Shown piece by piece: positions 13,217 through 13,735 of a DNA stretch of 64,000 bases. This DNA is from Octopus vulgaris (lineage: Eukaryota), in contig OX597835.1 of NCBI GenBank assembly GCA_951406725.2, positions 41,416,001 to 41,480,000 of the forward strand, in the 5' to 3' direction. The translations under genes were made by a program, and so were the position numbers. Positions within the stretch are counted from its first letter, which is position 1. Every line of letters begins with the position of its first letter. Under the pieces are notes generated by a model. That model ran no database searches. It worked only from the letters and a program-made list of their open reading frames with translations, and was not told the origin of the DNA.

Positions 13217-13381
13217 TTAAAAGATGAGGAATTATGTACATTATTTACAATTGACGGATATTTGTCCTCATCTTGTTTGTTGTTAACACAGCGTTTCGGC
13301 TGATATACCCTCCAGCCTTCATCAGGTGTCTGGGGGAAATTTCGAACCCCGAGTTCTCATTCCTAAGGTATTTTTTCGATG

Positions 13382-13424
<43 letters not shown>

Positions 13425-13605
13425 CATCATTATTATTATTATTATTCAGGTCACTGCTTGGAATTAAACTCAGAATCTTGGGGTTAGTAGTCTGCGCTCT
13501 TAATCACTACACCATATGCCAGTGGGCATATGGCATAGTGGTTAAGAGCATGGGCTATTAACCTCAAGATTCTGAGTTCAATTCCAGGCAGTGACCTTAA
13601 TAATG

Positions 13606-13650
<45 letters not shown>

Positions 13651-13735
13651 TCGAAAAATACTTTAGGAATGAGAACCCAGGTTCGAAATTTTCCCCAGAC
13701 ACCTGATGAATGCTAGGGGGTATATCAGCCAAAAC
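13217..13735. mobile_element. Head-to-head inverted pair of tRNA-like head + (AAT)n + hammerhead units (putative Penelope-mobilised SINE)
   Basis: Symmetry centre CCATATGCC-AGTG-GGCATATGG at about 13512-13533. Each arm has an A-box (TGGCATAGTGG), B-box (GAGTTCAATTCC), (AAT)n, then GACACCTGATGA...CAGCC. Confidence 0.75.
13285..13330 (-). ncRNA. Minimal type-I hammerhead ribozyme (one core mutation)
   Basis: GACAC CTGATGA a GGCTG gagggtatat CAGCC GAAA CG CT GTGTT. Stem I is GACAC/GTGTT and stem II is 5 bp; the U16.1 position reads C. Confidence 0.7.

What the first reader, a model, noticed from the sequence alone, without database searches (positions are those of the whole stretch)
13217..13735. 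Bidirectional 'tRNA promoter + (AAT)n + hammerhead' element: candidate Penelope-mobilised SINE/retrozyme
Seen: two head-to-head copies of a unit made of a tRNA-like head (A box TGGCATAGTGG, B box GAGTTCAATTCC, loop resembling tRNA-Asn), an (AAT)n spacer and a minimal type-I hammerhead (GACAC CUGAUGA stem II GAAA). Known: Penelope-like elements (PLEs) carry minimal hammerheads in their pLTRs and often integrate with inverted ends, whereas classic SINEs borrow LINE 3' tails. Inference: this is a Pol III-driven non-autonomous element with a self-cleaving ribozyme in place of a LINE tail, mobilised by PLE RT. The left copy has a U16.1 to C change and the right copy is truncated, so these copies are probably inactive.
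Basis: partly seen in the sequence, partly recalled or inferred. Interest (0 to 1): 0.8.

Follow-up and report, generated by a model that had tools for sequence, protein, structure and literature searches.

The report
Octopus SINE with Penelope hammerhead end
This is one decayed head-to-head pair of a very abundant octopus repeat that joins a tRNA-like start to an intact minimal hammerhead ribozyme motif and a Penelope-style end, so it is likely a SINE copied by Penelope-like enzymes instead of the usual LINE enzymes, although its partner element was not found.

Summary
The structure is real: two inverted arms (13210-13521 minus, 13524-13735 plus), each a tRNA-like head, an (AAT)n tract and a minimal type I hammerhead. 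Public reads show a very high-copy Octopus family whose majority sequence keeps the catalytic core (U16.1 in 96% and 95% of DNA depth); this window's copies are mutants. Copies have two 3' end classes 21-28 nt apart, about half carrying the longer tail, which is the Penelope-like (PLE) insertion signature; a GIY-YIG PLE remnant in the same window has the same head-to-head, one-tailed form. The hammerhead is not the 3' end: copies run 52-80 nt past the cut site, so uncleaved RNA was copied. A sister family shares only the hammerhead-plus-tail module. Family RNA shows an A-to-I editing pattern. Not shown: the autonomous partner, Pol III transcription, cleavage, the tRNA isotype, and how often copies are dimers. 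Precedents: schistosome Sm-alpha/Sj-alpha and animal retrozymes. Verdict: new variant of a known kind, likely a PLE-mobilised SINE.

The parts
13210..13230 (-). Optional 3' tail of the left arm (long end class ends at 13210)
   Evidence: loose ends before 13210 in 369 (X1) and 358 (X8) contigs, 1865 and 1624 reads
13231..13248 (-). Short 3' end class (13231-13238), inside two degenerate 9-nt units; holds a GT donor-like site near 13248
   Evidence: 234+78+158 contigs (X1), 237+74+148 (X8); 9-nt insertion and deletion rows; for the donor-like exit
13221..13274 (-). Predicted 3' stem-loop (13274-13265 pairs with 13230-13221)
   Evidence: folding prediction only
13275..13284 (-). AC-rich stretch between hammerhead and stem-loop
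   Evidence: sequence
13285..13330 (-). Minimal type I hammerhead, left arm: stem I 13330-13326 with 13289-13285, CUGAUGA 13325-13319, extra A, 6-bp stem II, GAAA 13297-13294, predicted cut after 13290; private U16.1-to-C at 13291
13331..13384 (-). Linker between AAT tract and hammerhead, left arm
   Evidence: main loose end at 13348 reads on into the family's own next 30 bases
13385..13446 (-). (AAT)n tract, 20.7 units
13447..13521 (-). tRNA-like head, left arm (A box 13514-13504, decayed B box 13471-13460)
13522..13523 (.). 2-nt spacer between the two heads; each head starts 7 nt before its A box, at the position of tRNA base 1
   Evidence: sequence; same register in P0002
13524..13597 (+). 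tRNA-like head, right arm (A box 13531-13541, B box region 13574-13585)
13598..13650 (+). (AAT)n tract, 17.7 units
13651..13697 (+). Linker, right arm
13698..13735 (+). Right-arm hammerhead, broken: G10.1-to-U, G12-to-A, ends 3 nt before the predicted cut site

Best explanation
This locus is a decayed head-to-head pair of a high-copy octopus repeat made of a tRNA-like head, an (AAT)n tract, a minimal hammerhead motif and a two-ended tail, and it is likely a Pol III-transcribed SINE that is copied in trans by the reverse transcriptase and GIY-YIG nuclease of a Penelope-like element (PLE). Shown: the anatomy, the intact family core, the two 3' end classes, the join of head and body in other copies. 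Inferred: a roughly 300-nt RNA starts at the head; the PLE protein binds the hammerhead-plus-tail module, nicks both strands of AT-rich DNA and primes two cDNAs at two adjacent internal sites of uncleaved RNA (as shown in vitro for the anole PLE PAc, PMC11167929). Because the RNA is short, both cDNAs would reach its 5' end and be joined there, giving a head-to-head dimer with a tail on one arm. The hammerhead likely serves as part of the recognition module and would cut only as an RNA dimer or with protein help. The chimera likely arose once when a PLE end inserted into the (AAT)n tail of a simple SINE. Read-through transcripts are predicted to fold into a long hairpin, a likely ADAR substrate.
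For: Core intact in the family: U16.1 in 95.7% (X1) and 95.3% (X8) of summed contig depth, 3305 of 4116 and 2655 of 3395 RNA reads. All five min-HHR traits of PLEs in PMC4209133 are met; that paper also reports min-HHR pairs 100-700 bp apart on opposite strands. Two end classes 21-28 nt apart; depth in the tail over depth in the body 0.48, 0.35, 0.48, 0.54, as expected if one arm of each pair is tailed (PMC8557442). In-window comparator: GIY-YIG remnant (PF01541, E 3e-4, below the curated cut-off) with head-to-head arms, 167 identical bases, then a 54-nt tail on one arm only. Of 149 related spurious ORFs, 12 hold an antisense copy, all 12 upstream of the sense copy; 16 hold head-to-tail tandem units; in the sister family 68 long, 30 short and 2 undetermined ends of 100. 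Homology to the sister family starts at hammerhead stem I and the stem II pair reads C-G most often there, U-A in the octopus family (read through translation). P0002 repeats the head-to-head centre. PLEs are abundant in Octopus vulgaris (6.83% of the genome, 190 families).
Against: No autonomous partner found: no match to the two PLE-type sites in the window, no PLE RT or GIY-YIG among 2 hits, 34 of 150 scanned proteins, or in a second frame (0 of 5 candidates). Depth next to the AAT tract is about a tenth of hammerhead depth in DNA contigs and only 982 of 7967 and 791 of 6558 reads run over the stretch's ends; an alignment break at 13344-13353 explains part of this, but headless 3' stubs may be common. 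The 245 reads into the head agree at 0.98 and may come from one locus. The tail (21-28 nt) is shorter than the usual 30-40 nt. The short end lies in a 9-nt repeat, as LINE-type tails do. The head fails ARAGORN and Rfam.
Confidence: 0.7

Rival explanations
1. An ordinary LINE-mobilised tRNA SINE that carries a captured hammerhead as a passenger; the 9-nt units at the short end are its LINE-type tail.
For: Short end class lies in a 9-nt repeat with unit gains and losses (table 4); SINEs and LINEs are the largest repeat classes of O. vulgaris.
Against: A second sharp end 21-28 nt further out, head-to-head geometry (12 of 12 oriented cases), tandem units and conservation limited to hammerhead plus tail are PLE traits, not LINE traits.
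Confidence: 0.11
2. The palindromic dimer spreads as DNA, like a MITE, after one founding inverted insertion.
For: The whole 526-nt unit is an inverted repeat (predicted -319 kcal/mol); the centre has the same register in a second locus; a palindromic MITE-like element exists in the window (45539-46114).
Against: Ends fall in two classes of about equal weight instead of one fixed terminal repeat; the sister family forms partial tandems; no fixed target duplication seen.
Confidence: 0.07
3. No chimeric family: PLE end stubs insert again and again into the (AAT)n tails of a simple SINE, and this locus is a local scar.
Against: The AAT-to-body boundary is the same in both arms and no loose end at 13384 is among the best-supported ones; heads are joined at exact 5' ends; head and body are joined in at least two other loci.
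Confidence: 0.07
4. A retrozyme in the strict sense: hammerhead cleavage cuts unit-length RNAs that circularise and are copied as tandems.
For: Intact family core; tandem units of about 43 codons in 16 of 149 ORFs; the right arm ends 3 nt before the cut site with a possible 7-bp target duplication.
Against: This locus has one hammerhead per strand, not a tandem; main genomic ends lie 52-80 nt past the cut site; no RNA end pile-up (weak for standard RNA-seq).
Confidence: 0.05

Closest known systems
[quoted passage not shown]
   Same: tRNA-derived Pol III promoter followed by a type I hammerhead; very high copy number.
   Different: Those occur as head-to-tail tandems and cleavage frees units; here a minimal PLE-type hammerhead, a PLE-style tail beyond the cut site, an AAT spacer and head-to-head pairing. 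No sequence comparison was made.
Minimal hammerheads and insertion structure of EN+ Penelope-like elements (PMC4209133, PMC8557442, PMC11167929; passages and sections read)
   Same: Min-HHR traits, optional tail at one end, inverted partner at the 5' side, AT-rich flanks.
   Different: No ORF; an own tRNA-type promoter; both arms reach the same 5' end instead of being variably truncated.
Animal non-LTR retrozymes as non-autonomous PLE derivatives (PMC7229834 passages; bioRxiv 10.64898/2026.07.22.740005 first part and term search)
   Same: Short non-coding hammerhead elements proposed to use PLE enzymes.
   Different: Defined as tandem repeats; the 2026 preprint has 0 mentions of tRNA, Pol III, octopus or mollusc.
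tRNA-derived SINEs, including octopus OK, OR1, OR2 (SINEBase PMC3531059 passages; Ohshima and Okada 1994 seen only as a reference)
   Same: Short, dispersed, A and B boxes, simple-repeat tract after the head.
   Different: SINEs are defined as LINE-dependent; here the 3' module is PLE-like. Whether this family already bears an octopus SINE name in Repbase, Dfam or the 1994 paper could not be checked.

Membership tests
SINE (SINEBase definition) | Short (under 1 kb), interspersed, at least 100 copies | tested here: met
   312-nt arm; 24,858 and 23,629 contigs laid, with diverse flanks (agreement 0.40-0.48)
SINE (SINEBase definition) | At least 60% identity to a tRNA over 60 nt | tested here: inconclusive
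   66% (51 of 77) right head, 61% left head against 119 viral tRNAs pre-selected by a head-derived pattern; shuffled heads reach 63% and 59%. A and B boxes at tRNA spacing are beyond chance
SINE (SINEBase definition) | Transcribed by Pol III | not testable with these tools
   RNA-seq shows the family in RNA, with equal depth for both mate directions; origin not shown
SINE (SINEBase definition) | Depends on a partner LINE (LINE-derived or simple-repeat 3' end) | tested here: inconclusive
   3' end is a hammerhead plus two-ended tail; no LINE library available
PLE minimal hammerhead (Cervera and de la Pena 2014) | Core CUGANGA and GAAA, U16.1, extra base between 9 and 10.1, G10.1-C11.1, palindromic 15.2-16.2, short helix I, long helix II | tested here: met
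   met by the family majority, not by the two local copies
PLE minimal hammerhead (Cervera and de la Pena 2014) | Self-cleavage as dimer | not testable with these tools
   no RNA end pile-up in two standard RNA-seq runs, as reported for PAc
Non-autonomous PLE derivative | [quoted passage not shown] | tested here: met
   two end classes, 21-28 nt apart, near 1:1; about 12 codons apart in the sister family
Non-autonomous PLE derivative | Inverted copy adjacent at the 5' side, or partial tandems | tested here: met
   this locus; 12 of 149 and 16 of 149 related ORFs; frequency in the genome not measured
Non-autonomous PLE derivative | 3' sequence shared with an autonomous PLE | tested here: inconclusive
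   no partner found; no genome held
Non-LTR retrozyme | At least two head-to-tail units, each with a hammerhead | tested here: not met
   one hammerhead per strand at this locus
Non-LTR retrozyme | Circular monomer RNA | not testable with these tools
   none
Sm-alpha / Sj-alpha | Sequence homology and tandem arrangement | not tested
   no sequence of these families was available; arrangement differs
MITE | Equal terminal inverted repeats with fixed target duplication | tested here: not met
   two end classes; only a weak 7-bp candidate duplication with a 1-nt offset

The most novel reading that the evidence does not exclude
Octopus carries a SINE class whose partner is a Penelope-like element: a tRNA promoter fused to a swappable hammerhead-plus-tail module, inserted as a rule as full-length head-to-head dimers by double priming. 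That would expose how PLE inverted ends form, and would have seeded the genome with on the order of 100,000 arms that fold into self-contained hairpins, a main substrate of octopus hyper-editing.
Probability: 0.4. Interest if true: 0.78.

Novelty: new variant of a known kind. Interest (0 to 1): 0.6.

Why it matters
SINEs are defined as parasites of LINEs; a tRNA-headed element that uses Penelope-like enzymes would widen that rule and suggest which enzyme moves hammerhead SINEs such as Sm-alpha. A 300-nt RNA that yields complete head-to-head pairs with one tail is a minimal substrate for testing how PLE inverted ends and tails arise, an open step of the PLE cycle (PMC8557442, PMC11167929). Built-in hairpins in very large numbers could help explain the exceptional hyper-editing of octopus RNA (PMC5625713, where a palindromic repeat explains the frog case). 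Copies also appear as first exons of predicted octopus transcripts.

Tried and rejected
No own genome was held, so no genome BLAST, copy census or flank analysis. Exact motif scans of metagenome, viral and prokaryote collections found 0 matches. Rfam: 0 at gathering score in 64 kb; 8 chance-level matches and no tRNA or hammerhead family at E up to 10. ARAGORN 0. Head against phage genomes: 6 chance matches, none on a tRNA. tRNA isotype test inconclusive (the A/B-box pattern in that script was mis-written and was redone). Protein search across the head-to-head junction: 0 of 4 candidates. Search for a partner ORF in two frames: no PLE protein. One search listed 24 runs, 20 holding part of the stretch in 13 studies; only 4 runs were laid, and the small-share rows are not used. 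Copy number from depth ratios (0.8-2.2 x 10^5 arms) is a rough figure; the tool warns that depth is no copy number. A tRNA-type head in the sister family rests on 1 of 149 peptides (P0123) and is only a hint. The 7-bp candidate target duplication (13202-13208, 13734-13740) is weak and overlaps a family-typical flank motif. Earlier-scan look-ups by sequence, place and one word set were empty. Literature: 10 searches found no description of an octopus hammerhead SINE; Albertin 2015 and Lunse 2017 were not held; Repbase, Dfam, the Zenodo library of PMC13282606 and bioRxiv supplements were not visible and may name this family.

Full report
Observation. The window shows two inverted arms meeting at 13521-13524. 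Each has a tRNA-like head, an (AAT)n tract (20.7 and 17.7 units), a linker of about 50 nt and a hammerhead motif. Heads are 62 of 74 identical and bodies 79 of 88. No third copy lies in the window. A and B boxes at tRNA spacing occur twice in 64 kb, both here, against a mean of 0.02 in 100 shuffles. A hammerhead descriptor finds the left arm and one unrelated site, against 0 in 50 shuffles. Each head begins 7 nt before its A box, at the place of tRNA base 1, with a 2-nt spacer between the heads. The cloverleaf is decayed (ARAGORN and Rfam find nothing) and the isotype stays open.

Host. Named relatives of the element's translation come from Octopus sinensis and O. bimaculoides. The species of the window was not determined and no genome was held.

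Family. I laid two DNA runs (contigs) and two RNA runs (about 6 in 100 of each read) on 13150-13399, which covers the left hammerhead and 3' end but not the heads. 24,858 and 23,629 contigs and 7,967 and 6,558 reads were laid. At 13291 the family has U16.1 in 95.7% and 95.3% of contig depth and in 3305 of 4116 and 2655 of 3395 reads. Listed differences at other core positions are minority ones, mainly CpG decay (8-17% in DNA). So the core is intact in the family and broken in both local arms (left U16.1-to-C; right G10.1-to-U, G12-to-A and truncation). The motif meets the traits of PLE minimal hammerheads given in PMC4209133 (passages and section 5 read).

Ends. Among the 24 loose-end rows shown (917 more were not shown), 3' ends cluster at 13210 and at 13231-13238. 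Depth at 13221 over depth at 13250 is 0.48, 0.35, 0.48 and 0.54 in the four runs; contig depth suffers edge effects and one expressed locus inflates the RNA short class. Two ends 21-28 nt apart with about half the arms tailed fit the optional tail at one end of PLE insertions (PMC8557442, passages), which in the anole element PAc equals the distance between two internal priming sites in an AC-rich stem-loop downstream of the hammerhead (PMC11167929, parts 1 and 2 of 4 read). Here too an AC-rich stretch and a predicted stem-loop follow the hammerhead. No pile-up of RNA ends was found, a weak negative for standard libraries. The right arm's end, 3 nt before the cut site, is not among the listed end classes and stays unexplained.

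Join of head and body. The main loose end inside the body (13348) reads on into the family's own next 30 bases, so it marks private indels of the window copy. 245 reads in X22 continue from the AAT tract into a head with an intact B box (agreement 0.98, possibly one locus). P0002, a predicted O. bimaculoides protein, starts with nine residues in the register of the window's head-to-head centre and continues into the hammerhead segment. Against: depth beside the AAT tract is about a tenth of hammerhead depth in contigs, and 982 of 7967 and 791 of 6558 reads run over the ends, so the share of complete copies is not measured. In X8, X22 and X23 depth drops by about a fifth at 13285, so some sequences share only the last 75 nt.

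Comparators. The same window holds a PLE remnant at 19931-21580: GIY-YIG (PF01541, E 3e-4, under the cut-off), head-to-head arms meeting near 21062, a CUGAUGC hammerhead variant in each arm, a 54-nt AC-rich tail on one arm only, in (TA)n. It has the same geometry but no sequence match, so it is not the partner. A search of 1.84 billion proteins with the body-plus-tail frame gave 149 hits, nearly all spurious ORFs on repeat copies. By rough patterns 16 look like the octopus family (about 3 mis-sorted), 100 like a sister family from unnamed assemblies, 35 other (2 counted twice). The sister family matches only from hammerhead stem I to the tail end. 12 of 149 hold an antisense copy, all upstream (head-to-head); 16 of 149 hold tandem units; sister ends are 68 long, 30 short, 2 undetermined; the stem II pair reads C-G in 31 of 91 sister units (the commonest; the rest mostly CpG decay) and U-A in 3 of 8 octopus-like units. 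Of 34 proteins scanned (33 of the 149 plus P0001), none has a PLE RT or GIY-YIG; two run into unrelated RT or RNase H fragments. The partner remains unidentified.

RNA editing. The RNA runs list A-to-G at 16 and 21 places and T-to-C at 22 and 25, the DNA runs 5 and 5, 3 and 2. At eight positions that I picked from the table, RNA shows 11-26% and DNA 0.1-1.8%. DNA and RNA are from different individuals (X8, X22 and X23 share a species label), so this is a pattern, not a proof. The dimer is predicted to fold into one long hairpin. Octopus is among the two most hyper-edited animals in PMC5625713 (passages). Nearby inverted monomers could give the same signal.

Mechanism. Best reading (0.7): a Pol III SINE that borrows PLE enzymes through a hammerhead-plus-tail module; double priming on both target strands and full-length copying of a short RNA give head-to-head pairs with one tail. 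Steps shown: anatomy, intact core, end classes, join. Steps inferred: Pol III, PLE protein use, double priming, dimers as the usual form (about 0.6), origin by PLE insertion into an AAT tail (PAc nicks ATT). Rivals: LINE-driven SINE (0.11), MITE-like spread (0.07), repeated local insertions (0.07), strict retrozyme (0.05).

Comparison and novelty. A tRNA promoter with a hammerhead is known from schistosome Sm-alpha and Sj-alpha, and non-autonomous hammerhead elements are already tied to PLEs. It works like a non-autonomous PLE with a SINE head; it fails the tandem test of retrozymes and cannot be filed as a LINE-dependent SINE. Ten literature searches found no account of this octopus family as a hammerhead or PLE-type element, but repeat libraries, Albertin 2015, Lunse 2017 and the 1994 octopus SINE paper were not visible, and the sequence probably sits in them under a SINE label. 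Earlier notes of this scan (unchecked) mention tRNA-bearing PLE-type repeats without ribozyme in other genomes; they are leads only. Verdict: new variant of a known kind; interest 0.6.

Noticed in passing
window 19931-21580: Penelope-like remnant: C-terminal GIY-YIG fragment, head-to-head arms identical over 167 nt and more, CUGAUGC hammerhead variant, 54-nt tail on one arm only, inserted in (TA)n; looks young.
   Followed up: partly
window 60660-60710, minus: Intact minimal hammerhead (CUGACGA, 4-bp stem II, GAAACGUU) of another family, followed by about 100 nt and a (TA)n tract; likely a solo PLE end.
   Followed up: partly
window 45539-46114: Palindromic element of about 570 bp with nested inverted repeats, MITE-like.
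   Followed up: no
window 384-773, plus: Open frame resembling a PLE-type reverse transcriptase core by eye; no Pfam match.
   Followed up: partly
window 24570-25121, plus: Pif1 helicase fragment (PF21530), likely a Helitron remnant.
   Followed up: partly
window 61896-62804, minus: Host SOCS-family gene exon (SH2 plus SOCS box).
   Followed up: partly
P0001, P0002 (window equivalent about 13248, minus): Two predicted Octopus proteins begin inside this element and leave it at the same place, a GT donor-like site in the tail stem-loop: likely exonised first exons (LOC115224785 isoforms; dystrobrevin beta X1).
   Followed up: partly
P0006-P0153: A sister repeat family in unnamed assemblies shares the hammerhead-plus-tail module with a different upstream part, forms tandems and inverted pairs; one peptide hints at A and B boxes; further variants (P0039, P0069, P0112, P0146) suggest more families.
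   Followed up: partly
window 13734-13740 and 13202-13208: Right arm stops 3 nt before the hammerhead cut site beside a possible 7-bp target duplication; might record copying from a cleaved RNA (single case).
   Followed up: partly
window 10448 and 32335 (minus), 12650-12810: Other tRNA-derived SINE heads of different families.
   Followed up: no
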